From positions 1 through 54,064 of the IMG/VR virus record IMGVR_UViG_3300042309_000278: a DNA stretch of 54,064 nt; one strand, given 5' to 3'. Within the stretch, counting starts at the first letter, position 1, and each line of letters starts with the position of its first letter. The notes under the pieces were generated by a model, which had not been told where the DNA came from, did no database searches, and saw only the letters and a list, made by a program, of their open reading frames with translations. A program made the translations under genes and the position numbers. Below, piece after piece: positions 3,517 to 53,910 of the stretch. The stretch comes from a virus (taxonomy: Duplodnaviria > Caudoviricetes).

Positions 3517-3523
3517 TATTTAT
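3517..3523 (-). promoter_or_regulatory. Late promoter ATAAATA upstream of gp19
   Basis: Exact core of the T4-like late promoter, overlapping the sheath stop codon, followed by a GGGAG RBS. Confidence 0.6.
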
Positions 3524-6255
3524 TCGATGGTGGTTAGGTTGAAGTCACTTCTCACAGCAACGAAGTTCAACTGAACGAAGTTGATGGACTTCAATGGCTT
3601 GATATAAATGTCTGCAACAAACTGATTGTTGTCGATTACTTGCGATGTATTGTTCGTTTCATCACAAATAACCTTGAAATCAGCAATACCGCGTTGTGCT
3701 TGAACATTAGAAAGGAATGGTGTTACAAGATTGCGGAATTGAGAACGAGTAAACTCATCGTTGAATTCAAAGAGAGAATACTTGGCTGCTTTGGCAATAG
3801 CCTTCTCAAGGGCAATAAACACTCTACGAACATTTATGCGATCAAATGCACTTGGCTTCGTCAACATGGTCTTATCGCTGTAAAGAACAGTTCCAGAACC
3901 ATCGTTGAACTGAACAAAGAAGTTGATTCCATTCTTGTAGAGTTCGTCGCGATCTGCCTTGCTGAAGTTTGTTTCCAACTTCACAGCATTTCGGATAAAG
4001 CCTCTTGAGAATCCTGCTGGAGACTCCCAAGGAATTTCTTGGGCGCAGAGAATTCCAGCAACATCTGACGAGAGAGACATCTTTCTCAACTGATTGTTGA
4101 AGGTGTCGAAGAAAACTTTTCGACCAGCAACAAGAATTGTGTATGAGTTCGACGGAACTTGTAACACATTCTTTCTGAAATTGATGGTGTTAGTTGCTGT
4201 CTGCGATGAATATTGATTTGGGTTTGATGGCTTTGGTGTTGGTATGACAAGCACAGTGTCTTTTCGTGGTGATATTACTGTGTCATACGCAATTCTTTCA
4301 ACCATATCTTCTACTGCTTGAGAAGTATCACTACTAACTGATGATTCTGGAACAAACAGAATATCAACAGCCGAGTCATCATCCGCAAATATTGAGTATG
4401 CTTTCGTATATTCCAGAGTTGACGGACCTGTTAGCGAAGACTCTCCGTGCGCTAGTTGAGACTCATAGAATCCCTTTCTAGTATAAGTGGTTCCGTCAGC
4501 AGCAACGTATGAATAAATGATATCTCCAAACGCCGTGGTTGCATCAGATGATGCGTTTCCACCACCACTTAAACCAAATGGTTTGGTGCAGTAAACAAAC
4601 TGAGAGTTGTTGTTGATGAAATCTTTATAGTAGATTGACTCGCCATCAAGATTCTTTGCATCAGTTGCCTTAGAAAGAAGTTGGAATTTCTCAAGCAATC
4701 CGTTCTTTGGTCCAAACTTTCCTCCCGTATCGATAACAGCGAAACTAATTTCGTCATTTGAACCACCAACATTAGAAGCGAATTCTGATGTATTTGGAAT
4801 CTTGTCGAATATTGAGTTAGAAGATGCAAAATCGCTTGTAGGGGTTGTTACAGTTGTGGCAAAGGTGGATAGATTTCCAACTTGCTTCATACCAAAAGAA
4901 AAGTCTCTCCGAATTCCAGTCAATCCGCCAGTTGTATCAAAAGTCACCCCAACACTTTGCTGAGTTCCATTTACAGTTTTTGTGAACGTAACACCGCCAG
5001 TTAATCCAACTAGAAGGTTCCAACCCTTTATGCTTGTAGATGGTGGCGTTGAACCAAATATATCAGTCGATACTTTAGACCATGTATTTCGGTATAATGG
5101 AAATAGATTTGATGAACCAGAGGGGAAATTTCCACTATAGATCAAACTACCAAAATTAGATGGTATACCACTTGTTAAGTAGTTCTTTGTCCCAACCTCA
5201 CCCGGTCTATTACCGAAAGTGAGTGTTGGATGCATATTTGTAGAATCTGCATTTAAAAACAGAATATCAACTGCTTTGGGGCTAGTTGAATTTATTTTTG
5301 CAAATACAGTTTTTGGACTGTTAGAAGAATTGCTGTATTTATTAAATGGATTGTATTTTGTCCCAACAGGAGAGATTGATTCCAACGCATAGTAGTTTTG
5401 GTTGTTGCCGCTAGGATCAGATCCGTTGTTTGTTAGGGTATAATTGCTGGATGTTGTTCCTGTTGCGTATAGGAAATTAATTGCCGATGTTGTATCCAAT
5501 GAATTTATAAAAGTAGTTGGTTCAACTCCACTTGGCGGAACAATGGTAATCATTGTATATGTGTGAGTACCAGATGTAGTACCAAGAAGTTCATGTCCAT
5601 TTGAATCTATAACAGCATCTGGATCCGGAGAACCGTTATAATATGTAAAAGTATATCCAATTGCTCCTGTGCTTATACCCGCCATCGTAGCGAGTGCATA
5701 TCCACCAATCAGATTAAAATCGGTATATGCGGCTACCGTGGTGTTTACAGATTCGGTTTCATTAGTTGTACCATCCCACACAATTACCTTAAGCGAGTCA
5801 CCAAAATTTCCTGGATATCTCGCACGGAAATTTGCTATGGATTCAATTCCATTTTGACCAGAGAACCCACCAAGTTTTGCAAATTCTTCTTCGTTGGTTA
5901 TTCTAGGATATGTGCAGTTATTGATGCTAGTTATTCCAGCCTCTTGAGAGGTTGAATTTGTATCGCTTGATTGTTCGATTCGAATAACCTTGAGGTTGTT
6001 TGAATACTTCAAAAAGTTTGCTGCTGCGAAGAAATCAATTTCACTCAAACTATCTGATGGATCAAGTGTTGGTTTTCCAAATAAAGCAGCAAGATCGCTT
6101 TCTGATGTTACGCGGTTAGCAACTAGGCACGGACCCCAGTTAAATGTTCCAACCATACCACCACTGTTAAGCGATTCTGGTTGAACGAATTGTGAAAGAT
6201 CGATTTCCGATACATTTACACCTGGGCTTAGTTGTGTTGGGATTGGACTAGCCAT
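3520..6255 (-). CDS. gp18: Tail sheath protein, paralog B (911 aa, enlarged central insertion)
   Basis: N-terminal LSPGVNVSEIDL and FNWGP; C-terminal WESPAG, SAFDRINVRR, FEFNDEFTR and IYIKPLKSINFVQLNF. Confidence 0.93.
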   Translation of the reverse strand: MASPIPTQLSPGVNVSEIDLSQFVQPESLNSGGMVGTFNWGPCLVANRVTSESDLAALFGKPTLDPSDSLSEIDFFAAANFLKYSNNLKVIRIEQSSDTNSTSQEAGITSINNCTYPRITNEEEFAKLGGFSGQNGIESIANFRARYPGNFGDSLKVIVWDGTTNETESVNTTVAAYTDFNLIGGYALATMAGISTGAIGYTFTYYNGSPDPDAVIDSNGHELLGTTSGTHTYTMITIVPPSGVEPTTFINSLDTTSAINFLYATGTTSSNYTLTNNGSDPSGNNQNYYALESISPVGTKYNPFNKYSNSSNSPKTVFAKINSTSPKAVDILFLNADSTNMHPTLTFGNRPGEVGTKNYLTSGIPSNFGSLIYSGNFPSGSSNLFPLYRNTWSKVSTDIFGSTPPSTSIKGWNLLVGLTGGVTFTKTVNGTQQSVGVTFDTTGGLTGIRRDFSFGMKQVGNLSTFATTVTTPTSDFASSNSIFDKIPNTSEFASNVGGSNDEISFAVIDTGGKFGPKNGLLEKFQLLSKATDAKNLDGESIYYKDFINNNSQFVYCTKPFGLSGGGNASSDATTAFGDIIYSYVAADGTTYTRKGFYESQLAHGESSLTGPSTLEYTKAYSIFADDDSAVDILFVPESSVSSDTSQAVEDMVERIAYDTVISPRKDTVLVIPTPKPSNPNQYSSQTATNTINFRKNVLQVPSNSYTILVAGRKVFFDTFNNQLRKMSLSSDVAGILCAQEIPWESPAGFSRGFIRNAVKLETNFSKADRDELYKNGINFFVQFNDGSGTVLYSDKTMLTKPSAFDRINVRRVFIALEKAIAKAAKYSLFEFNDEFTRSQFRNLVTPFLSNVQAQRGIADFKVICDETNNTSQVIDNNQFVADIYIKPLKSINFVQLNFVAVRSDFNLTTIE

Positions 6256-6266
6256 TTGCTCTCCTA

Positions 6267-8168
6267 TTAGATGATCTCAGTGAAGGTGCTATCTGTTCTC
6301 GTTGCGATGAAGTTCAATTGAATGAAGTTAATCGACCTTGCTGGCTTGATGTAAATGTCTGCCACGAACTGATTGTTGTCAATCACTTGACCAGTATTAT
6401 TTGTTTCATCACAAATAACTCTAAAGTCCGTAATTCCTCTCTGTGCTTGAACATTTCTGAGATATGGAATGACTAGATTGCGGAATTGAGAACGAGTAAA
6501 CTCATCGTTAACTTCGAACAATGAGTATTTAGCGGCAGTTGCGATAGTCTTTTCAAGAGTGATGAAAAGGCGACGAACATTGATACGATCAAACGCACTC
6601 GGCTTCTTCAATAGAGTTTTATCTCCAAAGAGAATGGTTCCTTCTCCGCTGAATGTTGCAACTGGATTGACTCCCGCAACATAGAGAAGATCGCGCGATG
6701 ATTGATCTGGATTAAAGGCTAGTTTAATTGAATTTCTTATAGTTCCGCGATTGAGTCCTGCTGGTGAGAACCAAGCCTGTGTTGCCGATTCACTTCTTGC
6801 ACAAAGACCAGCAATATCGGAGTTCAACGGAATATAACGGAACATGTCATTGTACTTATCGTAGATGTACTTCCATCCACTATCCATGACGATATAGGAT
6901 GAATTCATTCCATAAGTTGTATTTCTTGTTGTAATGACACTCGATGTGGCTTGAGCCTGTGTCTTGTTCAAAACATCGCTAAGTGTTGGTGACACAAACA
7001 GTACACAGTCCTTGCGCTCATTGACAAGATCTGCAAGAAGTTTGACTGTTGTTGCATCAGATCTACCCGATATGAGTAGTGATATATCTACGTTGTCGCG
7101 ATCAAGGAACTTACTATATCCCTTGGTGAAGATATTTGCTGTTGTCGATGATGCACCAGTTCCTCCACTTAGGCTATAACGAGATACCTTTGCAGCAGCA
7201 TATCCTCCGCTAATATCAGAGAAGGAAGTTGTGAGATCTTTAGCAATGGTTTCGCCCCAAAGTTGCTCCAGATCACCAGCCCAAATATAGTTTGACTGTG
7301 TGTTGATTACAGAAGTAACATAGTTTGGTTGACCATCGTTGTTGCGAGCATCATATGCTTTCGAAACATTTTGGAATGTTTCTAGAATTGTTCCCTTGGT
7401 CCCCGTAAACAAACCATCTTCATCGATGACCACAACATTGAGTTCGTCGTTTGCGCCACCCTTGGCGGCGGCTTGTGTGCTTGTCTCGGCAGTTAGTTGG
7501 AAAAGATCCGCATACTTACTACGGAACTTCATGCTTGCGCTTAGACCAATTGTACTCGCAATATATGTCTTTGTGGTGACAGTATTTCCTGCGGCAGAAT
7601 CGACAAGGAAAGTTTGTGCAAATTGATTTGTTTGGAAAATCAATTTGTCGTTTTCTTCAAGGGTTCCGCCAAGAACTGTAGAGAATCTGATGGTATTTGT
7701 TCCGATTGATGCCGTTGCACCAACAGTAAGTGTGGCTTCTCCATCACCGTCGATCACAACAACTTTCAGTGAATTTCCCAATACTCCTGGATACTTGGCA
7801 TAGAAAGCAGCCGTAAGTCCATCAGTGCCACCAAGAACATCTTCATTGGCATATTGCAAACCAGTAATACCGGAAGAATTTGCATTGGTTTCATCGCTGC
7901 CTATAGCACGAACAACCCGAAGATCGCGACCGTATTGAAGAAAGTTTGCTGCACAGTGGAAATCGATTCCGTTATCATCACGGAGAGGCTTTCCGAAAAC
8001 TCTTACCAAATCGTCTTCTGATGTGATCGTGACTATTTTTTCTGCTGGACCCCATTGAAATACTCCAGCGATTGCCGCTGTAGTACTTGCAACATTTGGT
8101 GTGACATTTGTGAGGTCAATTTCCGAATAATTCACACCTGGGCTAAGTTGTACGGGAATTCTGCTCAT
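6267..8168 (-). CDS. gp18: Tail sheath protein, paralog A (633 aa, canonical size)
   Basis: LSPGVNYSEIDL, FQWGP, WFSPAGLNRG, SAFDRINVRRLF and IYIKPARSINFIQLNF. Confidence 0.96.
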   Translation of the reverse strand: MSRIPVQLSPGVNYSEIDLTNVTPNVASTTAAIAGVFQWGPAEKIVTITSEDDLVRVFGKPLRDDNGIDFHCAANFLQYGRDLRVVRAIGSDETNANSSGITGLQYANEDVLGGTDGLTAAFYAKYPGVLGNSLKVVVIDGDGEATLTVGATASIGTNTIRFSTVLGGTLEENDKLIFQTNQFAQTFLVDSAAGNTVTTKTYIASTIGLSASMKFRSKYADLFQLTAETSTQAAAKGGANDELNVVVIDEDGLFTGTKGTILETFQNVSKAYDARNNDGQPNYVTSVINTQSNYIWAGDLEQLWGETIAKDLTTSFSDISGGYAAAKVSRYSLSGGTGASSTTANIFTKGYSKFLDRDNVDISLLISGRSDATTVKLLADLVNERKDCVLFVSPTLSDVLNKTQAQATSSVITTRNTTYGMNSSYIVMDSGWKYIYDKYNDMFRYIPLNSDIAGLCARSESATQAWFSPAGLNRGTIRNSIKLAFNPDQSSRDLLYVAGVNPVATFSGEGTILFGDKTLLKKPSAFDRINVRRLFITLEKTIATAAKYSLFEVNDEFTRSQFRNLVIPYLRNVQAQRGITDFRVICDETNNTGQVIDNNQFVADIYIKPARSINFIQLNFIATRTDSTFTEII

Positions 8169-46767: not shown

Positions 46768-48432
46768 ATGGCACTACCAAATCCAGGTTCAGCACCACAA
46801 ACAACACCACCAATCGACAATAGCATACGAGAAGCCATTTCGACGGGTATCAAGGCTGGTTTGTTGACCACACAGAGCAGGATATTTTCTAAAGTTCCAA
46901 GAATTCTTGGTGGTGGTATTTTTGCGGAGAGAGCAGAAGAGAAGCGACGAGAACTTTATGCAAGTCAAGGTCGCGATGTCTTGACTGGTAGAAAACTCAC
47001 CAAAGAAGAGATCGAAGAACGAGAACGTCGTAAGATGTCACAAGATGCGATGGGTGAGATCAACGAAAATGTTGATCTGATTCGCATATTACTTGAAAAG
47101 AATTTTGGTAAACCATCAGCCACAGCACTTCCTGCGTTGGGATTGGCAGGAATGCCGAATATTCTTACGCCGAAGAAAGATACAAGACCTTACGAGTTAG
47201 CAGATGACTCTGGTGGAATAAATCTTGCTCAAGAAGAACAGAAGATAGAGCAGCAAAAGGCAGACAAAGAAGTACAACTTGAGGTTCAAGAAAAAGATCA
47301 TTCATTCACGGAAAAACTTTTTGAGAAGTATTTCGGTAAGTCAAACATAGACAGATCCAAAGCAGGAGCAGAAGCAAAGGCTGGTGGTGGATTACTTAGC
47401 AAACTCGCTGGTGTCATAGACACATTTGCTGATTTGAAAACCTTGGGTATCATCGGCAAAGGTAGTAGGCTTGGGAAGATCGGTAGTGCCGTGGCTCGCG
47501 GTGGAATGGGTCTTGTTAGTGGTGCAGGAAGAATGATTGGTGGTGTTGCAAGAGGAGCAGTAAATCTTGGTGTAAAAGCGGCGGGTGCTGTTACAGGTGC
47601 AGTATCGGGAGCAGCAGCAGCGGGTGGCGGATTCCTTTCCAACATATGGGGTTCTGTGAAGAACATGGGTGGAAAGATTGCAGACACAGCAGGGAAATTT
47701 AAAGGTCTTGCGGGTGGAATTTCTGGTCTTGGAAAGATGGTGATTGGTGCAATCGGTCCTGTGATCGAATCTGTACTTTCATACCAAGACATAAATTCCA
47801 TCAAAAGCGACCCATCTCTTTCCGCGCAAGAAAAGAAAGATCAGATTGGGGAGAGAATTGGAAAAGCCATCGGTTCTATACTTGGTGGTGTTGGTTCAAT
47901 GGCACTTTTAGGTCCAGTCGGACCTGTAGTTACAACTGCACTTGATGCTTTTGGAGTTGGACCTGGTGCGCTTGGAGAATTCCTTGCAGAGAAACTTGGT
48001 GGCAAAAAGATCTACGACATAGCATCTGAAATTCCTGGTTTGGGTTTCATGAAAGTCGATGAGACAGCACCCCCAACAAAAGAAACTCTACCAGCAGAAG
48101 GGCAACTACAAACAAACACCCCATTCGAATCACCAGAAGACTACAACAAGTTTGGTATGAATTCGGGAATGCAAACTCCTGCATTAACTCCAACGCAAGT
48201 AGCCACCGCAGTTCCAAACATGACACCAACTTCTGCTGCGACATTGGGCAATCTTCAAGTTGAAAGTTCTGCTTTGAAGTCTGCACCTCAAATAATGCCA
48301 CCTGTTGTTGTTCCAACAAACAATGCGGTTGTGAACAACACCAACAATGTATCTTGGATGTCATCGCTGACACCAACGAGATCGGGTGCGGATCTTGATG
48401 AGAAAGTATTCAGACTTGGTCTTGCATTCTGA
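46768..48432 (+). CDS. Tape measure/baseplate hub protein (gp29-like)
   Basis: Follows gp51; helical and Gly/Ala-rich hydrophobic middle; C-terminal PVVVPTNNAVVNNTNN; 554 aa. Confidence 0.7.
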   Translation: MALPNPGSAPQTTPPIDNSIREAISTGIKAGLLTTQSRIFSKVPRILGGGIFAERAEEKRRELYASQGRDVLTGRKLTKEEIEERERRKMSQDAMGEINENVDLIRILLEKNFGKPSATALPALGLAGMPNILTPKKDTRPYELADDSGGINLAQEEQKIEQQKADKEVQLEVQEKDHSFTEKLFEKYFGKSNIDRSKAGAEAKAGGGLLSKLAGVIDTFADLKTLGIIGKGSRLGKIGSAVARGGMGLVSGAGRMIGGVARGAVNLGVKAAGAVTGAVSGAAAAGGGFLSNIWGSVKNMGGKIADTAGKFKGLAGGISGLGKMVIGAIGPVIESVLSYQDINSIKSDPSLSAQEKKDQIGERIGKAIGSILGGVGSMALLGPVGPVVTTALDAFGVGPGALGEFLAEKLGGKKIYDIASEIPGLGFMKVDETAPPTKETLPAEGQLQTNTPFESPEDYNKFGMNSGMQTPALTPTQVATAVPNMTPTSAATLGNLQVESSALKSAPQIMPPVVVPTNNAVVNNTNNVSWMSSLTPTRSGADLDEKVFRLGLAF

Positions 48433-48832
48433 GTTTGTTGAATAGTTTCATATCAAACTCATGTATGCCGTCATCCATTGTGTAGAAGATCTTATCGAAA
48501 CACTTCACACACCACGGCATACACTTCGGACAAGGGCGTGAGATACGCATCTGTCCGTGGCTGTTGAACCGAAAGTTCCACAGTTCAAGACCTTCGCGCT
48601 TGTCACACTTCAAGAACGCATCAAGTTCTGAATGCACCTCGCCAAAGAGATATCCGTGCTTAACGGCAAGAGGGTGTGTCTTGAAACGATTGATGCCAAC
48701 GGCAAGGATTCGATTCTTGTGTAGGATGATGCTGCAATGCCTCTTCCTACGGGGGATCTCAAGACACTTTGCATAGGCAAAGTCGATCAACTTGCGGTGT
48801 TTTTCGGGATCTATCATAATAAAGATTTTCAT
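48410..48832 (-). CDS. Zn-dependent deaminase of the cytidine/dCMP/TadA superfamily
   Basis: VHSELDA (HxE) and RPCPKC (PCxxC) Zn motifs, plus AVGIN. ATAAATA and AGGAG upstream. The start may be 48817. Confidence 0.85.
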   Translation of the reverse strand: MKIFIMIDPEKHRKLIDFAYAKCLEIPRRKRHCSIILHKNRILAVGINRFKTHPLAVKHGYLFGEVHSELDAFLKCDKREGLELWNFRFNSHGQMRISRPCPKCMPWCVKCFDKIFYTMDDGIHEFDMKLFNKLRMQDQV

Positions 48833-48848
48833 CCAATCCCGACACTCC

Positions 48849-48855
48849 TATTTAT
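48849..48855 (-). promoter_or_regulatory. Late promoter ATAAATA upstream of the deaminase
   Basis: Exact core motif immediately followed by AGGAG. Confidence 0.6.
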
Positions 48856-48876
48856 GGAGATGTCTGAGACTCATCT

Positions 48877-48908
48877 AAAAACATTCTATTCGAATTCAAA
48901 AGAATGTT
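48877..48908 (-). terminator. Possible intrinsic terminator
   Basis: AACATTCT...AGAATGTT inverted repeat followed by T residues on the minus strand, at the end of the small membrane ORF. Confidence 0.35.
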
Positions 48909-49021
48909 ATTGTTGCTTTTGCGAGTGCTGCGAGAATCAACATCGTGAAGGTAAATATCGCTAGCACCTTGGCAACACCTAGTGCTATCATTGCCGAATC
49001 ATCATCGTCTTCCTGTTTCAT
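48896..49021 (-). CDS. Small single-TM protein, probably leaderless
   Basis: MKQEDDDDSAMIALGVAKVLAIFTFTMLILAALAKATITFF; the ATG is 7 nt after a -10 box. Confidence 0.55.
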   Translation of the reverse strand: MKQEDDDDSAMIALGVAKVLAIFTFTMLILAALAKATITFF

Positions 49022-49028
49022 ATTCATC

Positions 49029-49057
49029 AACATACCCCCATATAATGTATGGGTCAA
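49029..49057 (-). promoter_or_regulatory. Sigma70-type early promoter TTGACC-N17-TATGTT
   Basis: Read directly on the minus strand. Confidence 0.55.
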
Positions 49058-49138
49058 GCAACACCGTGAATCAAATCTTTGAATCATTTGATTCTGAATC
49101 GATTCACGCGAGATAAAAACATTCTTTCTCTCACTTCC

Positions 49139-49166
49139 TTGACTTCCCTAAAGTAGACGCTACTCT
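49139..49166 (+). promoter_or_regulatory. Sigma70-type early promoter TTGACT-N16-TACTCT
   Basis: At the head of the plus-strand accessory operon; ATG 7 nt downstream. Confidence 0.55.
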
Positions 49167-49173
49167 TGTGTCG

Positions 49174-49260
49174 ATGAAGGTCATGGTGTCCTTCAGAGCG
49201 CAACTTGTTGAGGGAAGGACTCCTCGACGTATAGATATAGGAAGATTGGTGGCTTTGTGA
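49174..49260 (+). CDS. Putative leaderless 28-aa peptide
   Basis: MKVMVSFRAQLVEGRTPRRIDIGRLVAL; its stop codon overlaps the GTG of the next ORF (GTGA). Confidence 0.4.
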   Translation: MKVMVSFRAQLVEGRTPRRIDIGRLVAL

Positions 49261-49523
49261 AATTGTTCCGTATGCTCATAGATACTGACTCCAACCCAGA
49301 TGACGATGCCCCCATTGTCAAAGGAAAGGAGACTGGTATTATGGAGGAGAAGAACATGTTTGAAGGAGTTAGTGACTCTCGCAAGGAAGCAATGATCCAC
49401 GATCTCATCCTAGTGGTGAAGTCGGCAATGACGAAAGTGAATGCAAGGGAGCAACTTTGGTGCGACATCCTTGCTAAGACTGAAAATGACATTCGCAGGG
49501 TCGTAAACGAAACGATCCGATGA
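49257..49523 (+). CDS. Hypothetical protein
   Basis: ORF track; alternative starts at 49341 and 49356 have an RBS. Confidence 0.6.
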   Translation: MKLFRMLIDTDSNPDDDAPIVKGKETGIMEEKNMFEGVSDSRKEAMIHDLILVVKSAMTKVNAREQLWCDILAKTENDIRRVVNETIR

Positions 49524-49534
49524 AGGAGTGAAAC

Positions 49535-49921
49535 ATGAAAATGGAATTCGATCACAAGTTCGTGGCAGCATTCAATACGTTTATGACAAGCCTCAAGACA
49601 CTTGTCGAAACATCAACAGCATCATCTAGCACAGCAGACTACGAAGAAGGATACAAGTACATTCGTATCATTCTCGTTCGAACCGATGTAGACGGTTCTA
49701 AGAAGAAGTCTGCGTGGGGATTCATCGACAAGCGGACTGCGGACATCTTCCGTGCCGCGAGTTGGAAGGCTCCCTGCCTCAACCACATTCGCGGAAACCT
49801 CTATGATGAGGACAATGGTCTGAAGCATTGCCATTGGACTGGTCCTGCGTACATATGGGCAATAAACGATTCCAAGAAGGAGGCAGTCGCGGCTCAACCC
49901 GCTCCCGAAGGAGGGATCTAA
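49535..49921 (+). CDS. Conserved phage hypothetical protein
   Basis: AGGAG RBS; KYIRI...SAWGFID...IFRAASWKAP...RGN pattern seen in many phage early proteins. Confidence 0.75.
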   Translation: MKMEFDHKFVAAFNTFMTSLKTLVETSTASSSTADYEEGYKYIRIILVRTDVDGSKKKSAWGFIDKRTADIFRAASWKAPCLNHIRGNLYDEDNGLKHCHWTGPAYIWAINDSKKEAVAAQPAPEGGI

Positions 49922-50190
49922 TGGGCTACAGACTGCACATCGACATTCCGCTCAACCTCACCGAAGATGATGCAATCAAGCATAGCATTGCTATCATGTC
50001 TGCCATCGAAAACATTCTGATGTCGGGTGTGAAGACCGAAGCCGATACCATCAACTATCGTCTTGGTCACGACGATGATCGTCAGAAGTCGAACTACCTC
50101 GACAAGAATGAGAACGGACACGTCAGCAACAAGAAGTCAAAGATTCTTCTGAAGAGGGAGTTGACAGCAGCCGAAGACACGATAGAGTAA
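49921..50190 (+). CDS. Hypothetical protein
   Basis: Start MGYRLHIDIPL at 49921 with GGAGG RBS and TAATG coupling. Confidence 0.65.
   Translation: MGYRLHIDIPLNLTEDDAIKHSIAIMSAIENILMSGVKTEADTINYRLGHDDDRQKSNYLDKNENGHVSNKKSKILLKRELTAAEDTIE
50161..50188 (+). promoter_or_regulatory. Sigma70-type promoter TTGACA-N16-TAGAGT upstream of the tRNA cluster
   Basis: Perfect -35 box; the -10 box ends 11 nt before tRNA-Ile. Confidence 0.55.
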
Positions 50191-50199
50191 GTGAACAAC

Positions 50200-50274
50200 G
50201 CGCCGTGGGAGGTCTTGGCATCCTCAGTTCGATTTATAACCGAATAAGAGTTGGTTCGAATCCAACACGGCGTA
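50200..50274 (+). tRNA. tRNA-Ile(UAU)
   Basis: Acceptor GCGCCGT/ACGGCGT, loop TTTATAA, T arm GTTGG-TTCGAAT-CCAAC; A.C mismatch at the base of the anticodon stem; no CCA. Confidence 0.8.
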
Positions 50275-50350
50275 TTTCTCAAACAGGCTCTTCGCATATG
50301 AGTCGCTGCGATGAAAGCCAACAGTTTCGCGACTCACAGGAGATTTTGCA

Positions 50351-50674
50351 ATGTTCGGACTTACCAATAACAGCGTGTTCAAGTATGTCGGTGTTCTCTC
50401 TGCTCTCGTCTTTGTGTGGTTCACGTTCCTCTCACCAGAGAGCGCAAATGCAGCACAGAAGGCAAACTACGGTTTGATTGCCCTGTTCGCATCTCTCGCG
50501 TTGTATTACTATTCGCAGTTCAACCGTGAGCGTTCTTTCCAAGAGAACGACAATGTGTATCGTCGCATTGATGACGTTGAGCGTGAGTTCAACCTTCGCA
50601 TCAATGAAGTTGAGCGTGAAGTCAACGAATGTGTTGATAGCAAGTGCGCTGAATCGTGCAAGCGCGGTCGCTAA
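50351..50674 (+). CDS. Two-TM membrane protein with a C-terminal coiled coil
   Basis: AGGAG RBS; two hydrophobic segments. Confidence 0.7.
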   Translation: MFGLTNNSVFKYVGVLSALVFVWFTFLSPESANAAQKANYGLIALFASLALYYYSQFNRERSFQENDNVYRRIDDVEREFNLRINEVEREVNECVDSKCAESCKRGR

Positions 50675-50746
50675 TGATTGATGGTGTCCGTCTACCATGA
50701 GTGGCGGCAGAGGGTTCGCGCATTCTGCGAATAACGCGATTTCGTT

Positions 50747-50817
50747 GCGGGTATGATGTAGCGGCAACATGTGAGTTTTCCAAACTTTCCTCACGGGTTC
50801 GAATCCCGTTACCCGCT
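50747..50817 (+). tRNA. tRNA-Gly(UCC)
   Basis: GCGGGTA/TACCCGC acceptor, loop TTTCCAA, T arm ACGGG-TTCGAAT-CCCGT. Confidence 0.88.
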
Positions 50818-50821
50818 TTTT

Positions 50822-50911
50822 GGACAGATGGCAGAGTGGTCTAATGCTGCGGTTTACTAAACCGCCGATGGTTCCAGAAATCGTCCGAGGGTTCGAATCC
50901 TTCTCTGTCCG
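50822..50911 (+). tRNA. tRNA-Ser(ACU)
   Basis: GGACAGA/TCTGTCC acceptor, G discriminator, long variable arm, GCGGT-TTACTAA-ACCGC anticodon arm. Confidence 0.88.
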
Positions 50912-50912
50912 T

Positions 50913-50984
50913 TGATCTGTAGCACAACGGTAGTGCATCGACCTGTTAAGTCGAGGGTTACTGGTTCGAATCCAGTCAGATCAG
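50913..50984 (+). tRNA. tRNA-Asn(GUU)
   Basis: TGATCTG/CAGATCA acceptor; TCGAC-CTGTTAA-GTCGA anticodon arm. Confidence 0.92.
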
Positions 50985-50987
50985 TTC

Positions 50988-51068
50988 GGTTGTGTACTCA
51001 AGCGGCAACGAGGGCAGACTGTAAATCTGCTGACATAGTCTTCGGGGGTTCGAATCCCTCCGCAACCA
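50988..51068 (+). tRNA. tRNA-Tyr(GUA)
   Basis: GGTTGTG/CGCAACC acceptor; GCAGA-CTGTAAA-TCTGC anticodon arm; extended variable arm. Confidence 0.92.
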
Positions 51069-51073
51069 CTCAA

Positions 51074-51145
51074 GCCACCTTAGCACAGCGGCAGTGCATC
51101 GTATTTGTAATGCGAGGGTCGTGAGTTCAAATCTCACAGGTGGCT
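51074..51145 (+). tRNA. tRNA-Thr(UGU)
   Basis: GCCACCT/AGGTGGC acceptor; TCGTA-TTTGTAA-TGCGA anticodon arm. Confidence 0.92.
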
Positions 51146-51152
51146 TTCTTCC

Positions 51153-51515
51153 ATGCCATGTTATGCAATCTCAATCCGTGAAGACAAGGAACACCTCCTG
51201 AGAGATGGGGGTGGTTTCTTGTTCTTCAAGAAAAAGAATCTCGCAATTCAAATGTGCGATTCGATGAATGCACTACGGAAATCTATGAAGATTGACCAAG
51301 TGTATTCAATCTGCAAGATAGATGAGAAAGACTGGAAAGGTTTTCCAGTGATCTACGATCAGGAGTACGAAGATGACGCTACCAAGCGAGATGTTTCATG
51401 CTATACGAAACGCACGGCACTTCATGCTGGCGTTGATGGATCCGAAGGAAACTCCAAAGGTTCCAAGAGAAATAAGAAAGCGAGCGAGGGATCGACTCAA
51501 GCACTTCCCTTCTGA
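51153..51515 (+). CDS. Hypothetical protein
   Basis: ORF track; its 3' end overlaps the next gene by 143 nt. Confidence 0.5.
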   Translation: MPCYAISIREDKEHLLRDGGGFLFFKKKNLAIQMCDSMNALRKSMKIDQVYSICKIDEKDWKGFPVIYDQEYEDDATKRDVSCYTKRTALHAGVDGSEGNSKGSKRNKKASEGSTQALPF

Positions 51516-51696
51516 ATACGAAATTACAGAATTGGAAAAGATGTATTCATTCAAAGACAAGGATCCAAACATTCTTCTCAATGAGTGCATGAAGCGTCTT
51601 GACTCCATTCGCGGAGAACTTACCATAGTGAACAAGAAGGTTGGTGATGTCGGCAACGGCATCGTTGAAGTAATTCAAAACTCAAGGAGTCAATGA
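51373..51696 (+). CDS. Conserved phage hypothetical protein
   Basis: AGGAG RBS; MTLP.E...PKVPREIRKRA..LKHFP pattern common in phages. Confidence 0.75.
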   Translation: MTLPSEMFHAIRNARHFMLALMDPKETPKVPREIRKRARDRLKHFPSEYEITELEKMYSFKDKDPNILLNECMKRLDSIRGELTIVNKKVGDVGNGIVEVIQNSRSQ

Positions 51697-51697
51697 G

Positions 51698-51952
51698 ATG
51701 CCAAATAGTAAAGCAAAGAGTGTTGCTAGAAAGCACCGCAAGGCACGAAACCGTTGGAAGAGCAAGAATCGTGAGAGCCTCACTCATGCAAAGGTGAAGT
51801 CTCCACCAAAGAAGAAGCAATCTGTTTTTGAGCGAGCGAAAACATCCCCTCTGGCGGGGGCTTCCCCGTCAGCCGTATCTAACCCGCCAGAGGGGACTCC
51901 TCGCACCGCATCAACGATGTTGTTCACTGAACTCAAAGCAAAGGGTGGATGA
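51698..51952 (+). CDS. Basic hypothetical protein
   Basis: AGGAG RBS; Lys/Arg-rich N-terminus; ATGA overlap with the next gene. Confidence 0.55.
   Translation: MPNSKAKSVARKHRKARNRWKSKNRESLTHAKVKSPPKKKQSVFERAKTSPLAGASPSAVSNPPEGTPRTASTMLFTELKAKGG
51845..51896. repeat. Perfect 14-bp GC-rich inverted repeat
   Basis: TCCCCTCTGGCGGG (51845-51858) and CCCGCCAGAGGGGA (51883-51896). Confidence 0.85.
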
Positions 51953-52218
51953 AAATGGAAAAAACACAAATTGTCGAATCACTCCACCAAGGAGTCTGTG
52001 AAGTGGTGTTTACCAAGGCAGACGGCACGGAGCGTACACTTCGATGTACGCGATCTGCAAGCATTGCACCAATCACCAACACTAAAACCCTCCTCAATGA
52101 GGAGGGTGGTGGTCCAGATGTGATTCCTGTGTGGGACATGGATTCTGCACAATGGCGATCATTCAATATGAATACCATCAAGTCGTTCCGCAAGATTGGG
52201 ACTACTTTGAATGGCTGA
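51949..52218 (+). CDS. SH3-like/WYL_2-type beta-barrel protein
   Basis: VCEVVFTKADGTERTLRCT...VWDMD...WRSF motif of this widespread phage family. Confidence 0.75.
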   Translation: MKMEKTQIVESLHQGVCEVVFTKADGTERTLRCTRSASIAPITNTKTLLNEEGGGPDVIPVWDMDSAQWRSFNMNTIKSFRKIGTTLNG

Positions 52219-52227
52219 GTGAAAGTC

Positions 52228-52300
52228 GCTTCGGTGGCAGACAAGCAATGCATCGGTCTTTTAAACCGTACCCATGCGGGGGCAGTACCCGCCCGAAGCA
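52228..52300 (+). tRNA. tRNA-Lys(UUU) with non-canonical D and T loops
   Basis: GCTTCGG/CCGAAGC acceptor, loop CTTTTAA, T arm GCGGG-GGCAGTA-CCCGC. Confidence 0.78.
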
Positions 52301-52309
52301 TTTCTGATG

Positions 52310-52317
52310 TATACATA
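52310..52317 (+). promoter_or_regulatory. Late promoter variant TATACATA upstream of the HNH gene
   Basis: Followed by a GGAGG RBS and the ATG at 52336. Confidence 0.55.
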
Positions 52318-52335
52318 TTAGCGGAGGATGCTAAT

Positions 52336-52710
52336 ATGTGCGAATGCAGATACTGTGGTAAAGACATGGGAGAAAACCCCAACAGATCTAAAGGTGACAG
52401 AAGAACTCAATGCAATTCTTGTGCAGTGAGCAAGCGTAGATGGAAAGTTAAGTATGATCTGGTGACTGCAAAGGGAGGAAAGTGTTCTAGATGTGGGTGG
52501 GACAAACATCCAGCGGCATTGCAGTTTCATCATACAGATCCATCCAGTAAGGAGTTTAATCTGAATGCAAATGTTCTATTGCGTGAAAAAGGCAACTATG
52601 AGGAAGAACTTGCAAAGTGCATTCTTCTCTGTGCAAATTGTCATGCAATAGAGCATCAGAACGGTGACAGGTTTCTTGTTGAGTTGGGATGGAAATCTAC
52701 GGCGCGGTAG
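52336..52710 (+). CDS. HNH endonuclease, probably a free-standing homing endonuclease
   Basis: CxxC pairs and GGKCSRCG...LQFHH.DP...CILLCANCHAIEH; start moved to the ATG at 52336 behind GGAGG. Confidence 0.88.
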   Translation: MCECRYCGKDMGENPNRSKGDRRTQCNSCAVSKRRWKVKYDLVTAKGGKCSRCGWDKHPAALQFHHTDPSSKEFNLNANVLLREKGNYEEELAKCILLCANCHAIEHQNGDRFLVELGWKSTAR

Positions 52711-52773
52711 ACCAACGGCAGAGTCAGTTGACTTAAAATCAACACAGTGTGGGTTCGAATCCCACCCGTGCTA
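52701..52773 (+). tRNA. tRNA-Leu(UAA) with a short variable loop
   Basis: GGCGCGG/CCGTGCT acceptor, GTTGA-CTTAAAA-TCAAC anticodon arm, variable loop ACAGT, A discriminator. Confidence 0.88.
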
Positions 52774-53084: not shown

Positions 53085-53287
53085 TGAAACCAAAGATTAG
53101 ACATACTCTTTATGTTGTGACTATAACAATTCTCACAACAACACTTTTTATGGTGAAGTGTCAAGGGAATTTGTGGGCGCATCAGATTCGTCCGATTGCC
53201 ACAGAATCCGAAAAAGTGCGTCCACCAGGAGAGGGTGTCAAACTTGGAACAGGAAAGAATATGCATTACAGGATGAACACACAATGA
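53084..53287 (+). CDS. Small protein with an N-terminal hydrophobic/signal segment
   Basis: AGGAG RBS; TAATG coupling. Confidence 0.6.
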   Translation: MKPKIRHTLYVVTITILTTTLFMVKCQGNLWAHQIRPIATESEKVRPPGEGVKLGTGKNMHYRMNTQ

Positions 53288-53910
53288 AGACACTAATCGC
53301 AACAGCATTTATCACAACGACAGCACACGGAACTGGGACTCTCTGCACCTTTGAGAACCTTCCTGCTCCAACAACTCCTAGTATGAGTTCCGCTACCACG
53401 GGATTCTATTGGGATTACCTCTCCTCATACGAGGGATTCCACTTCACAAGTTCATTCTCCCAAGGAAACTTTCAATGGGGATACTACGATCTCGTTGGTG
53501 GTGGGGGATACGCAGGATACGATGAGGGAATCATCGGGGATCGTGCTTTGTTTACCCCGTGGGGTTCTGAGCAGAACAAGAACTACCGCATTCGTCGTGA
53601 TGATCTTTGGATTCTCAACAGCATTGAAGTCACATCAGTTTGGAATTCGACCGCAGTAGTTATAGAGGGATACCGATACGGAGAGGGTGTGTTTACTTAT
53701 ACTACACAACTCACAGCAGCACAGCGGGTAAAACTAAACATCTCCTCTGGATATCCTGGTCCGCTTAACAACATCACAGAGATCAAAATCTACACCAACA
53801 CATTTAGTTCCCATCTCGCTATCGATAATCTCAACTACACGGTGGTTCCTGCACCATCGGCACTTGCCCTGCTTGCGATTGTTGGTGCGGTTGGAAGGCG
53901 GCGACGATGA
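53284..53910 (+). CDS. PEP-CTERM-type (VPAP variant) exosortase-sorted surface protein
   Basis: Signal-like N-terminus MKTLIATAFITTTAHG; C-terminus IDNLNYTVVPAPSALALLAIVGAVGRRRR (motif, TM helix, Arg cluster). Confidence 0.85.
   Translation: MKTLIATAFITTTAHGTGTLCTFENLPAPTTPSMSSATTGFYWDYLSSYEGFHFTSSFSQGNFQWGYYDLVGGGGYAGYDEGIIGDRALFTPWGSEQNKNYRIRRDDLWILNSIEVTSVWNSTAVVIEGYRYGEGVFTYTTQLTAAQRVKLNISSGYPGPLNNITEIKIYTNTFSSHLAIDNLNYTVVPAPSALALLAIVGAVGRRRR

What the first reader, a model, noticed from the sequence alone, without database searches (positions are those of the whole stretch)
48410..50911. A34 tRNA-Ser(ACU) about 2 kb from a late-expressed HxE/PCxxC deaminase: possible phage wobble-editing or decoding module
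Seen: a well-formed Ser-type tRNA (long variable arm, G73) with anticodon ACT at 50856-50858, and a free-standing Zn deaminase with its own late promoter. Known: bacteria normally read AGY with tRNA-Ser(GCU), and A34 is largely limited to tRNA-Arg(ACG), which TadA edits. A34 or I34 in the split AGN box risks reading AGA (Arg) as Ser. Inference: the tRNA may serve the phage's frequent AGU codons, escape an anticodon nuclease, or be edited by the phage enzyme. The enzyme could equally be a nucleotide deaminase unrelated to the tRNA.
Basis: partly seen in the sequence, partly recalled or inferred. Interest (0 to 1): 0.7.

Follow-up and report, generated by a model that had tools for sequence, protein, structure and literature searches.

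The report
Phage serine tRNA with forbidden anticodon
A lake-water phage carries a genuine serine tRNA whose anticodon starts with A (ACU), a type that reviews list as missing from all life, and it most likely reads only the AGU codon rather than being edited by the small deaminase encoded 2 kb away.

Summary
Both observed objects are real. tRNA-Ser(ACU) at 50822-50911 is called by ARAGORN and Rfam. A contig of a second lake-water run of another study matches 50845-50913, A34 included, without a difference. The tRNA belongs to a conserved clade: 56 of 120 viral contigs sharing its anticodon arm have A34, there are 34 distinct sequences, and 16 of 27 stem pairs covary. No locus holds both ACU and GCU.

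The 140-aa ORF at 48410-48832(-) is an intact HSE/PCxxC zinc deaminase of the cytidine-deaminase fold. It belongs to a large, mostly viral, very basic family that Pfam does not detect.

The proposed editing module is poorly supported. Relatives with a 91-92% identical enzyme lack the ACU tRNA. Three of nine complete A34 genomes gave no match to the enzyme profile. I34 would read AGA, which is 45% of this phage's Arg codons. In E. coli, a published ACU-anticodon tRNA read AGU only and was not converted to inosine.

One result favours a link: the deaminase family occurs in 18 of 50 A34 contigs but 1 of 50 G34 contigs. This enrichment is not corrected for relatedness.

Best reading: a dedicated AGU decoder with unmodified A34, plus an unrelated or only loosely linked deaminase of unknown substrate. 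This scan has noted tRNA-Ser(ACU) before on other DNA.

The parts
50822..50911 (+). tRNA-Ser(ACU). The anticodon ACT is at 50856-50858 (A34 = 50856), with a long variable arm and G73.
   Evidence: ARAGORN; Rfam tRNA 51.2 bits; independent DNA contig with 0 differences; 16 of 27 pairs covary among 34 distinct A34 relatives.
48410..48832 (-). 140-aa zinc deaminase of the cytidine-deaminase fold (H67-S-E69, P100-C101-x-x-C104, N48). It is very basic (pI 9.4) and its substrate is unknown.
   Evidence: ORF; family alignment A1; model pLDDT 85.8; fold matches; PHROG 174 E 3.7e-5; no Pfam or NCBIfam hit; pI.
48849..48855 (-). ATAAATA box 17 nt upstream of the deaminase start. It resembles a T4-type late promoter (7 of 8 positions).
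   Evidence: 9 copies in the window; the 4 intergenic ones all lie 10-46 nt upstream of a same-strand gene start. A (C/A)TAAATA box is kept in most close relatives. Function is inferred.
50200..50274 (+). tRNA-Ile(UAU), first gene of the tRNA array, with an A31·C39 mismatch.
   Evidence: (32.7 bits).
50747..50817 (+). tRNA-Gly(UCC).
50913..51146 (+). tRNA-Asn(GUU), tRNA-Tyr(GUA) and tRNA-Thr(UGU), packed directly behind tRNA-Ser(ACU).
52701..52773 (+). tRNA-Leu(UAA), last gene of the array.

Best explanation
These are two separate features of an uncultivated lake-water myovirus, a distant relative of the T4-like cyanophages. (1) tRNA-Ser(ACU) is a functional phage tRNA that took the place of the usual AGY reader tRNA-Ser(GCU). 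With unmodified A34 it pairs by Watson-Crick with AGU only, giving the AT-rich phage a dedicated reader for its preferred AGY codon. It sits beside other phage tRNAs that read A/U-ending codons. Serine identity does not depend on the anticodon, so a G34-to-A34 change costs nothing in charging; this point rests on established knowledge, recalled. (2) The 140-aa protein is an active-looking zinc deaminase of the cytidine-deaminase superfamily, from a large, mostly viral, strongly basic family. It does not need the A34 tRNA and most likely does not turn A34 into inosine. Its substrate is open. My odds are about 45% a free cytosine nucleoside or nucleotide (a dCMP-deaminase-like supply of dUMP for ThyX), about 40% a nucleic acid (tRNA, RNA or DNA), and about 15% other or inactive. 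Shown here: gene integrity, conservation, covariation, distribution and fold. Inferred: the decoding range, absence of modification, enzyme substrate and expression timing.
For: The tRNA is genuine and selected. Among 120 viral stretches with the same anticodon arm, position 34 is A in 56, G in 61, C in 2 and T in 1. There are 34 distinct A34 sequences, and 16 of 27 predicted pairs show compensatory changes. None of 144 loci has both Ser(ACU) and Ser(GCU), so one replaces the other. ACU and GCU genes interleave in the tRNA tree, and the window's gene groups with the GCU genes of L013 and L033. Codon use fits. In 38 window genes AGT occurs 237 times and AGC 150 times. The companion tRNAs read ATA, GGA, ACA and TTA. 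Published experiment (Schmitt et al. 2024, PMC11066159, passages read): in E. coli an ACU-anticodon tRNA decoded AGU (9.4%). AGC and AGA were below detection, AGG was 0.36%, and no inosine was found. Evidence against a need for the enzyme: 0 of 38 contigs with close enzyme homologues carry the ACU tRNA, either within ±6 kb or anywhere by the pattern GGTTTACTAAACC. The closest relatives (91-92% identical enzyme: L001, L003, L036) have Ser(GGA) at that slot, and 7 others have Ser(GCU). Three of nine A34 genomes that are at least 90% complete gave no match to the enzyme profile at E <= 0.001. The enzyme's fold and family are covered.
Against: The enzyme family is enriched where the A34 tRNA occurs. 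The A1 profile hits 18 of 50 A34 contigs (6 of 9 complete genomes) but only 1 of 50 G34 contigs with the same anticodon arm (0 of 4 complete). I searched 50 of 56 A34 loci and 50 of 61 G34 loci. The A34 set holds about 1.85 times more DNA, and its contigs fall into perhaps 4-6 lineages, so relatedness is not controlled. The enzyme lies in or beside tRNA arrays in several arrangements. It is very basic: median pI 9.44 in 39 members and 9.66 in 138 distant representatives, against 5.9-7.0 for the canonical dCMP-deaminase-like paralogues. It coexists with such a canonical paralogue in G086, G063, G011, G002 and G021. These points argue against a plain dCMP-deaminase role and for some nucleic-acid link. 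Codon use does not separate ACU phages from GCU phages: AGT/(AGT+AGC) is 0.61 against 0.57, so codon matching alone does not explain why A34 was chosen. AGT is only 17% of Ser codons here. No RNA data cover the tRNA, so its modification state is unknown.
Confidence: 0.6

Rival explanations
1. Wobble-editing module. The phage deaminase converts A34 of tRNA-Ser(ACU) to inosine, widening or retuning AGN decoding.
For: The enzyme has an intact HxE/PCxxC site and is basic. It lies 2 kb from the tRNA, and inside tRNA arrays in relatives. The family is enriched in A34 contigs: 18/50 against 1/50. TadA structures are among the tied fold matches (6l2m Z 8.8, 2b3j Z 7.8).
Against: I34 pairs with U, C and A (established wobble rules). 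AGA is 297 of 666 Arg codons (45%) in this phage, so ICU would put Ser at Arg codons. A 91-92% identical enzyme is kept in relatives whose arrays hold no A34 tRNA at all. Three of nine complete A34 genomes gave no match to the enzyme profile. In most other A34 lineages, the tRNA-locus ranges and the enzyme places put the two genes roughly 18-30 kb apart or more. No TadA model matches any of 39 family members, even at E <= 10.
Confidence: 0.06
2. The deaminase acts on nucleic acid in some other way tied to tRNA biology or host takeover. Examples are C-to-U or A-to-I editing at another tRNA position, or deamination of host tRNA, RNA or DNA. Its association with A34 phages would reflect that shared biology.
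For: Net charge is +5 to +17 and median pI 9.44 across the family. It is a second, divergent deaminase beside a canonical dCMP-deaminase-like gene in five genomes. It is embedded in tRNA arrays. A late-promoter-like box precedes it. It is enriched in A34 contigs. tRNA-Ile(UAU) next to it has an A31·C39 or A31·A39 mismatch in 11 of 14 enzyme-linked arrays against 1 of 22 elsewhere (same lineage, so weak).
Against: No RNA-binding domain and no fused forms were found (weak evidence). The best sequence-level relatives are dCMP deaminases (PHROG 174; 2hvv and 1vq2). In two of the three cultured-phage homologue loci examined there is no tRNA within 4 kb (Sf-CH8 and Pa_AttikonH10); in the third (Peebs) tRNA genes lie 2-3.5 kb upstream. 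Two 93-98% complete relatives (G076, G078) have ThyX but no canonical deaminase, so there the small enzyme could be the dCMP deaminase.
Confidence: 0.3
3. A34 is an escape change. A host anticodon nuclease or other defence targets tRNA-Ser(GCU), and the phage supplies a resistant ACU version.
For: The G-to-A switch is confined to position 34 in an otherwise identical anticodon arm. ACU and GCU exclude each other. Codon use does not distinguish ACU phages from GCU phages, leaving room for a reason other than codon matching. That phage tRNAs can evade anticodon nucleases through loop changes is recalled from the literature; I read no paper on it here.
Against: No nuclease aimed at tRNA-Ser(GCU) was identified here, and nothing in the window points to one. 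A GCU-type phage tRNA would equally replace a cleaved host tRNA unless the nuclease reads G34 itself.
Confidence: 0.1
4. A34 is a sequencing error, a recent mutation or a dead gene.
For: None was found.
Against: An independent DNA contig is identical. There are 56 A34 stretches in the viral collection with 34 distinct sequences and compensatory stem changes.
Confidence: 0.01

Closest known systems
Bacterial and phage tRNA-Ser(GCU), the standard AGY reader
   Same: Same type II serine tRNA body, same anticodon arm apart from position 34, and the same slot in phage arrays. It interleaves with the ACU genes in the tree.
   Different: G34 reads AGC and AGU. A34 is expected to read AGU only (PMC11066159). 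ANN anticodons in split boxes are described as universally missing, in phages too (Ehrlich et al. 2021, PMC8007984, passages read).
Natural unmodified-A34 tRNAs, e.g. Mycoplasma tRNA-Thr(AGU)
   Same: A34 is kept unmodified and used in decoding (as summarised in PMC11066159).
   Different: Those sit in four-codon boxes, where loose reading is harmless. ACU sits in the split AGN box shared with Arg.
TadA with tRNA-Arg(ACG) (bacterial A34-to-I34 editing)
   Same: A zinc deaminase with HxE/PCxxC, and a tRNA with A34-C35.
   Different: The loop here is UACU, not UACG. E. coli TadA left an ACU-anticodon tRNA unmodified. The enzyme matches no TadA model. In the model, strands 4 and 5 follow each other without a helix between them; that this differs from TadA is my recollection of the deaminase-fold classification.
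dCMP deaminase (T4 Cd, cyanophage S-TIM5 enzyme; PF00383, PHROG 174)
   Same: Best sequence-level relatives. The HSELDA helix resembles the dCMP-deaminase zinc helix. ThyX is present in 4 of 5 large relatives.
   Different: It scores below Pfam's cut-off: no hit at all for the window protein and 4 of 39 members at E <= 10. It is shorter and very basic. It coexists with a canonical dCMP-deaminase-like gene next to UvsY in close relatives.
Small tetrameric cytidine deaminases and blasticidin-S deaminase
   Same: Top fold matches with the longest aligned stretches: 3b8f Z 9.6 over 121 residues, 3oj6 Z 9.6 over 120; Foldseek TM about 0.6.
   Different: Only 12-18% identity. Z values are tied within 1 unit with dCMP deaminase, TadA and guanine deaminase, so fold alone does not place it.

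Membership tests
tRNA-Ser (type II, bacterial type) | Cloverleaf with a long variable arm | tested here: met
   ARAGORN structure with a 7-bp variable-arm stem; Rfam tRNA 51.2 bits against a cut-off of 29.
tRNA-Ser (type II, bacterial type) | G73 discriminator and 3-bp D stem | tested here: met
   Read from the sequence and the ARAGORN drawing. That these are serine identity elements is recalled knowledge.
tRNA-Ser (type II, bacterial type) | Charged with serine by SerRS | not testable with these tools
   Needs an aminoacylation assay.
TadA / ADAT tRNA A34 deaminase | Match to the curated TadA model (NF008113) | tested here: not met
   No NCBIfam hit for the window protein at E <= 1, nor for any of 39 family members at E <= 10.
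TadA / ADAT tRNA A34 deaminase | H(A)E and PCxxC zinc site | tested here: met
   H67-S68-E69 and P100-C101-C104 are invariant in A1. This is shared by the whole superfamily, so it does not discriminate.
TadA / ADAT tRNA A34 deaminase | Fold closer to TadA than to other deaminases | tested here: inconclusive
   TadA 6l2m Z 8.8 over 96 residues against CDA and BSD at Z 9.6 over 120-121 residues: ties within 1 Z unit.
TadA / ADAT tRNA A34 deaminase | Co-occurs with its A34 tRNA substrate | tested here: inconclusive
   Enriched at 18/50 against 1/50. But 0 of 38 close homologues sit with the ACU tRNA, and 3 of 9 complete A34 genomes gave no profile match.
dCMP deaminase (PF00383 / PHROG 174) | Reaches Pfam's gathering score for PF00383 | tested here: not met
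   No hit for the window protein. 4 of 39 members hit at E <= 10. Distant representatives do link: 29 of 43 at E <= 0.01, 10 of them above the cut-off.
dCMP deaminase (PF00383 / PHROG 174) | Is the genome's deaminase feeding thymidylate synthase | tested here: inconclusive
   ThyX is in 4 of 5 relatives. G076 and G078 have no other PF00383 gene, but G086 and G063 have a canonical one beside UvsY.
dCMP deaminase (PF00383 / PHROG 174) | Deaminates dCMP | not testable with these tools
   Needs an enzyme assay.
Cytidine-deaminase-fold superfamily | Deaminase fold with the zinc site on two helices | tested here: met
   Model pLDDT 85.8. 12 Foldseek PDB matches at E <= 0.001, all of those listed being deaminases. 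VIA Z up to 9.6. 31 viral models at E <= 0.001.
T4-type late promoter | TATAAATA about 10-50 nt upstream of a late gene | tested here: inconclusive
   There are 0 exact TATAAATA in the window. ATAAATA sits upstream of the deaminase, the tail tube gene, a tail fibre gene and a PHROG-unnamed ORF in the baseplate module. There are no transcript data for the gene.

The most novel reading that the evidence does not exclude
The small basic deaminase family is a phage-encoded nucleic-acid (tRNA) deaminase whose spread is tied to the 'forbidden' tRNA-Ser(ACU). Phages would then carry both an anticodon that cells avoid and an enzyme that edits it, or edits the competing host tRNA. That would give the phage its own control over AGN decoding late in infection.
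Probability: 0.08. Interest if true: 0.85.

Novelty: new variant of a known kind. Interest (0 to 1): 0.55.

Why it matters
Reviews state that tRNAs with ANN anticodons in split codon boxes are missing from all life and from phages (PMC8007984). They treat the avoidance of unmodified A34 as an open question (PMC11066159). Here a natural, conserved and widespread tRNA-Ser(ACU) exists in many uncultivated phages, and most of those contigs lack a T4-type portal. It is a ready natural system for asking how an A34 tRNA behaves in a split box and why cells avoid it. The neighbouring enzyme belongs to a large viral deaminase family: 3754 clusters at 50% identity matched at E <= 0.001. The family has no assigned function, is unusually basic, and is a candidate nucleic-acid deaminase worth an assay. 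My six full-text searches found no paper on a phage tRNA-Ser(ACU): searches found none, and the listings named none. Subscription journals, and the unreadable supplement of Morgado and Vicente 2019, could hold one.

Tried and rejected
Single-sequence search of solved structures gave only chance hits such as glutathione transferases.

The cultured-phage collection has no close copy of the window's tRNA-Ser (3 hits at 72-77% identity) or of the commonest A34 family. The four cultured-phage Ser tRNAs that I checked with ARAGORN were GCU or UGA, and that of phage 121Q is annotated UGA in its record.

A loose pattern search in five cultured phages matched no more often than its reversed control.

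RNA libraries: contigs of X15 and X16 lie on 49436-49683 and 50290-50762 only. Nothing from this phage covers the tRNA-Ser or the deaminase, so neither expression nor editing could be read.

The search for longer, fused forms of the enzyme found none (weak evidence by the tool's own note).

The bacterial-genome scan found one hit only, on a 6-kb contig of a Flavobacteriales MAG with four tRNAs beside it. This is probably phage DNA in a bin and gives no host call.

The supplement of Morgado and Vicente 2019 (the list of all predicted viral tRNAs) could not be opened, so I cannot say whether it lists a Ser(ACT).

The idea that C-to-U editing repairs the A31·C39 mismatch of tRNA-Ile(UAU) was dropped, because 4 of 14 linked genes have A39.

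The sigma-70 promoter scan found no more sites than shuffles do (7 against 6.9).

Full report
WHAT THE WINDOW IS

The window is a whole IMG/VR virus record of 54,064 bases. CheckV estimates it at about 30% of a genome. GC content is 41.6%.

PHROG matches on 44 ORFs show a T4-type structural module: head maturation protease, portal, tail tube, two tail sheath genes, large terminase, and baseplate wedge and hub genes. The portal is 53-55% identical to those of Synechococcus and Prochlorococcus myoviruses. The phage is therefore a distant, uncultivated relative of the T4-like cyanophages.

Near-identical DNA stands in lake-water and freshwater metagenome runs. Fourteen DNA runs hold at least 79% of the sampled words. 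They come from 13 studies, one of which may be the source of this DNA.

THE OBSERVATION

ARAGORN finds seven tRNAs at 50200-52773: Ile(UAU), Gly(UCC), Ser(ACU), Asn(GUU), Tyr(GUA), Thr(UGU) and Leu(UAA). Rfam finds the same seven plus a weak tRNA-like match at 52228-52300.

tRNA-Ser(ACU) spans 50822-50911 and scores 51.2 bits. Its features are:
- a 7-bp acceptor stem
- a 3-bp D stem
- the loop UUACUAA
- a 7-bp variable-arm stem
- G73

In a run of another study, contig record 20 of X3 covers 50845-50913 without a single difference. No laid run shows another letter at 50856.

The ORF at 48410-48832(-) encodes 140 aa with H67-S-E69 and P100-C101-x-x-C104.

THE tRNA IS A MEMBER OF A CONSERVED CLADE

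I scanned the viral collection for the window's anticodon arm with the wobble base left free. Position 34 was A in 56, G in 61, C in 2 and T in 1.

ARAGORN calls Ser(ACU) in 57 loci, the window included. These give 34 distinct sequences. In their alignment 16 of 27 predicted pairs keep pairing through changes on both sides. The anticodon arm itself is invariant because the search pattern fixed it.

None of 144 loci with tRNAs has both Ser(ACU) and Ser(GCU). In a tree of 115 distinct Ser tRNAs the ACU genes interleave with GCU genes. The window's gene groups with the GCU genes of L013 and L033. A34 is thus a maintained alternative to G34 in the same gene.

The carriers are not one phage type. 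A T4-type portal (phrog_213) is found in only 2 of 50 A34 contigs and in 0 of 9 A34 genomes that are at least 90% complete.

Earlier notes of this scan report the same tRNA type in other phages and in Patescibacteria. I confirmed the phage part here and did not test the bacterial part.

HOW THE tRNA MOST LIKELY WORKS

The window's 38 genes use AGT 237 times and AGC 150 times. The other phage tRNAs read ATA, GGA, ACA and TTA, all frequent in this AT-rich genome.

Schmitt, Tittle and Fisk 2024 (PMC11066159; passages read) measured an orthogonal tRNA with the ACU anticodon in E. coli:
- AGU 9.4%
- AGC below detection
- AGA below detection
- AGG 0.36%
- no inosine in the cDNA

An unmodified A34 in this anticodon is therefore a working, AGU-specific reader that host TadA leaves alone. 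I take this as the mechanism. It is inferred for this phage, not shown.

Two points weaken a pure codon-matching story. AGT is only 17% of Ser codons here. Loci with ACU and loci with GCU do not differ in the AGT share of AGY codons: 0.61 against 0.57 pooled, from 36 and 40 loci.

THE ENZYME

Pfam and NCBIfam find nothing for the window protein. PHROG 174 (dCMP deaminase) matches at E 3.7e-5.

The word-index homologue search returned 63 relatives of 79-158 aa. None has a Pfam domain, and one is named deoxycytidylate deaminase by its source. In an alignment of 39 members the invariant residues include N48, H53-P54, G60-Y61, H67-S68-E69, N86, R88-F89-N90, S98, P100-C101, C104 and W107.

A profile of that alignment finds 3754 clusters at E <= 0.001 among 1.84 billion representatives, and 606 at E <= 1e-10. 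Almost all of those listed are 100-170 aa. Of 43 of the listed representatives that I scanned, 29 match PF00383 at E <= 0.01, and 10 of these are above the gathering score. This links the family to the cytidine/dCMP deaminase superfamily.

The model has pLDDT 85.8. Fold matches are all deaminases and are tied:
- Foldseek against PDB: blasticidin-S deaminase and yeast CDD1 first (TM about 0.6), then dCMP deaminases and TadA.
- VIA-align 2: cytidine deaminase 3b8f Z 9.6 over 121 residues; blasticidin-S deaminase 3oj6 Z 9.6 over 120; cyanophage S-TIM5 dCMP deaminase 4p9c Z 9.0 over 105; TadA 6l2m Z 8.8 over 96; guanine deaminase 1tiy Z 8.7.

In the model, strands at 114-119 and 122-125 follow each other with no helix between them. 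I read this as the hairpin type of the fold. That classification is recalled, not tested.

The close family is essentially viral. There is one hit in 185,579 species genomes, on a short MAG contig. Cultured phages have only distant homologues, at about 34% identity or less among the 40 records listed (all 156 are under 60%). They are Synechococcus, Streptomyces and phiKZ-like Pseudomonas phages, annotated as hypothetical or, by similarity, as dCMP deaminase.

IS IT THE PHAGE'S dCMP DEAMINASE?

Not simply. Two close relatives each carry a second, canonical deaminase of about 165-190 aa. These are G086 (86% complete, small enzyme 91% identical) and G063. The canonical gene scores 54-56 bits on PF00383 and 82-93 bits on PHROG 174, and it lies next to a UvsY-like gene. 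Complete A34 genomes G011, G002 and G021 also have a canonical gene plus a separate distant member of the small family.

On the other hand G076 and G078 (93% and 98% complete) have ThyX and no canonical deaminase.

The small family is strikingly basic. Median pI is 9.44 (range 8.75-10.11) in 39 members and 9.66 in 138 distant representatives. The two canonical paralogues have pI 7.0 and 5.9.

The gene has an ATAAATA box 17 nt upstream. The only other three intergenic copies in the window precede the tail tube gene, a tail fibre gene and a PHROG-unnamed ORF in the baseplate module. Most close relatives keep a (C/A)TAAATA box there. These traits suit a nucleic-acid-binding, late-made protein better than a nucleotide-pool enzyme, but none of them is decisive.

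IS THE ENZYME TIED TO THE A34 tRNA?

Evidence against a tie:
- Of 38 viral contigs with a relative of the enzyme (58-92% identity), none has Ser(ACU) within ±6 kb.
- None has the 13-base ACU arm anywhere in the contig. The six one-mismatch hits are other anticodons.
- The three closest (L001, L003, L036) have Ser(GGA) at that array slot and no A34 tRNA at all.
- Seven others (L013, L014, L016, L021, L023, L024, L033) have Ser(GCU).
- Of nine A34 genomes at least 90% complete, three (G023, G030, G044) gave no match to the enzyme profile at E <= 0.001.
- Inosine at 34 would read AGA, which is 297 of 666 Arg codons here.

Evidence for a tie:
- The enzyme profile hits 18 of 50 A34 contigs (6 of 9 complete). 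Five hits are strong (147-184 bits), two are medium (70-75 bits) and eleven are weak (23-48 bits).
- It hits only 1 of 50 contigs that carry the G34 version of the same arm (0 of 4 complete).
- The three weak and one of the two medium hits whose frames I read in full keep a KTH(P) loop, an H[AS]E motif and (K/R)PCxxC. They are separate genes from the canonical deaminases.
- In the window's lineage the gene lies in or beside tRNA arrays in at least three arrangements. In L161 it sits between Arg(UCU) and Ile(UAU) on the tRNA strand.

The enrichment has caveats. It is not corrected for relatedness. The A34 hits fall into perhaps four to six lineages by tRNA backbone. The A34 set holds about 1.85 times more DNA, by my sum of the contig lengths. 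In most non-T4 lineages the tRNA-locus ranges and the enzyme places put the two genes roughly 18-30 kb apart or more.

The two features are enriched together, but each occurs without the other.

VERDICT

The tRNA is a real and interesting exception to a stated rule. Ehrlich et al. 2021 (PMC8007984, passages read) list all ANN anticodons of split boxes as universally missing. Citing Morgado and Vicente 2019, they say that phages lack the same genes. In the latter paper (PMC6409571) I read passages only, and its supplement could not be opened.

The editing-module reading is unlikely, at about 6%. A looser link between this basic deaminase family and tRNA or nucleic-acid biology stays open, at about 30%. 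The substrate of the enzyme is the main unknown and is easy to test.

Noticed in passing
window 52228-52300 (+), 52336-52710 (+), 52701-52773 (+): Rfam, but not ARAGORN, finds a tRNA-like gene with a Lys(UUU) loop and an aberrant T arm (39.5 bits). An HNH endonuclease ORF (PHROG 2255, E 2e-26) follows directly, and its end overlaps the start of tRNA-Leu(UAA). Relatives have a normal tRNA-Lys(UUU) in their arrays. This looks like a homing endonuclease lodged in the array.
   Followed up: partly
window 50200-50274; Ile(UAU) genes in L001-L011, L036, L159-L161: tRNA-Ile(UAU) next to the deaminase has an A31·C39 mismatch at the foot of the anticodon stem. A31 faces C or A in 11 of 14 deaminase-linked arrays, against a non-standard 31:39 pair in 1 of 22 Ile(UAU) genes elsewhere. 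The linked arrays are related to each other, so this may be simple inheritance.
   Followed up: partly
window 3520-6255 (-) and 6267-8168 (-): Two adjacent tail-sheath genes of 911 and 633 aa both match PHROG 23.
   Followed up: no
window 53158-53910 (+): A 250-aa ORF ends in VPAPSALALLAIVGAVGRRRR. Its last 35 residues weakly match PEP-CTERM sorting-signal families (NF038120, E 5.9e-4, 19.8 bits, far below the cut-off). If real, it would hint at a Gram-negative host with an exosortase.
   Followed up: partly
G086:C1:107780-108085 (L180) and G063:C1:25584-25910 (L181): Close relatives carry a canonical dCMP-deaminase-like gene next to a UvsY-like gene, in addition to the small basic deaminase. 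The window itself is only about 30% of a genome, so its own copy, if any, is out of view.
   Followed up: yes
loci (e.g. L092, L152, L157; L066, L119): A few A34 Ser tRNAs encode their own CCA end. Some have A or T instead of G at the discriminator position (alignment). Other A34 tRNAs also occur in these arrays: Thr(AGU) 3, Leu(AAG) 1, His(AUG) 1 and Arg(ACG) 15, of 1035 tRNAs.
   Followed up: no
window 50161-50188 (+): A TTGACA-16-TAGAGT sigma-70-like site lies 12 nt before tRNA-Ile(UAU). RNA-library contigs cover 50290-50762. The number of such sites in the region is no higher than in shuffles.
   Followed up: no
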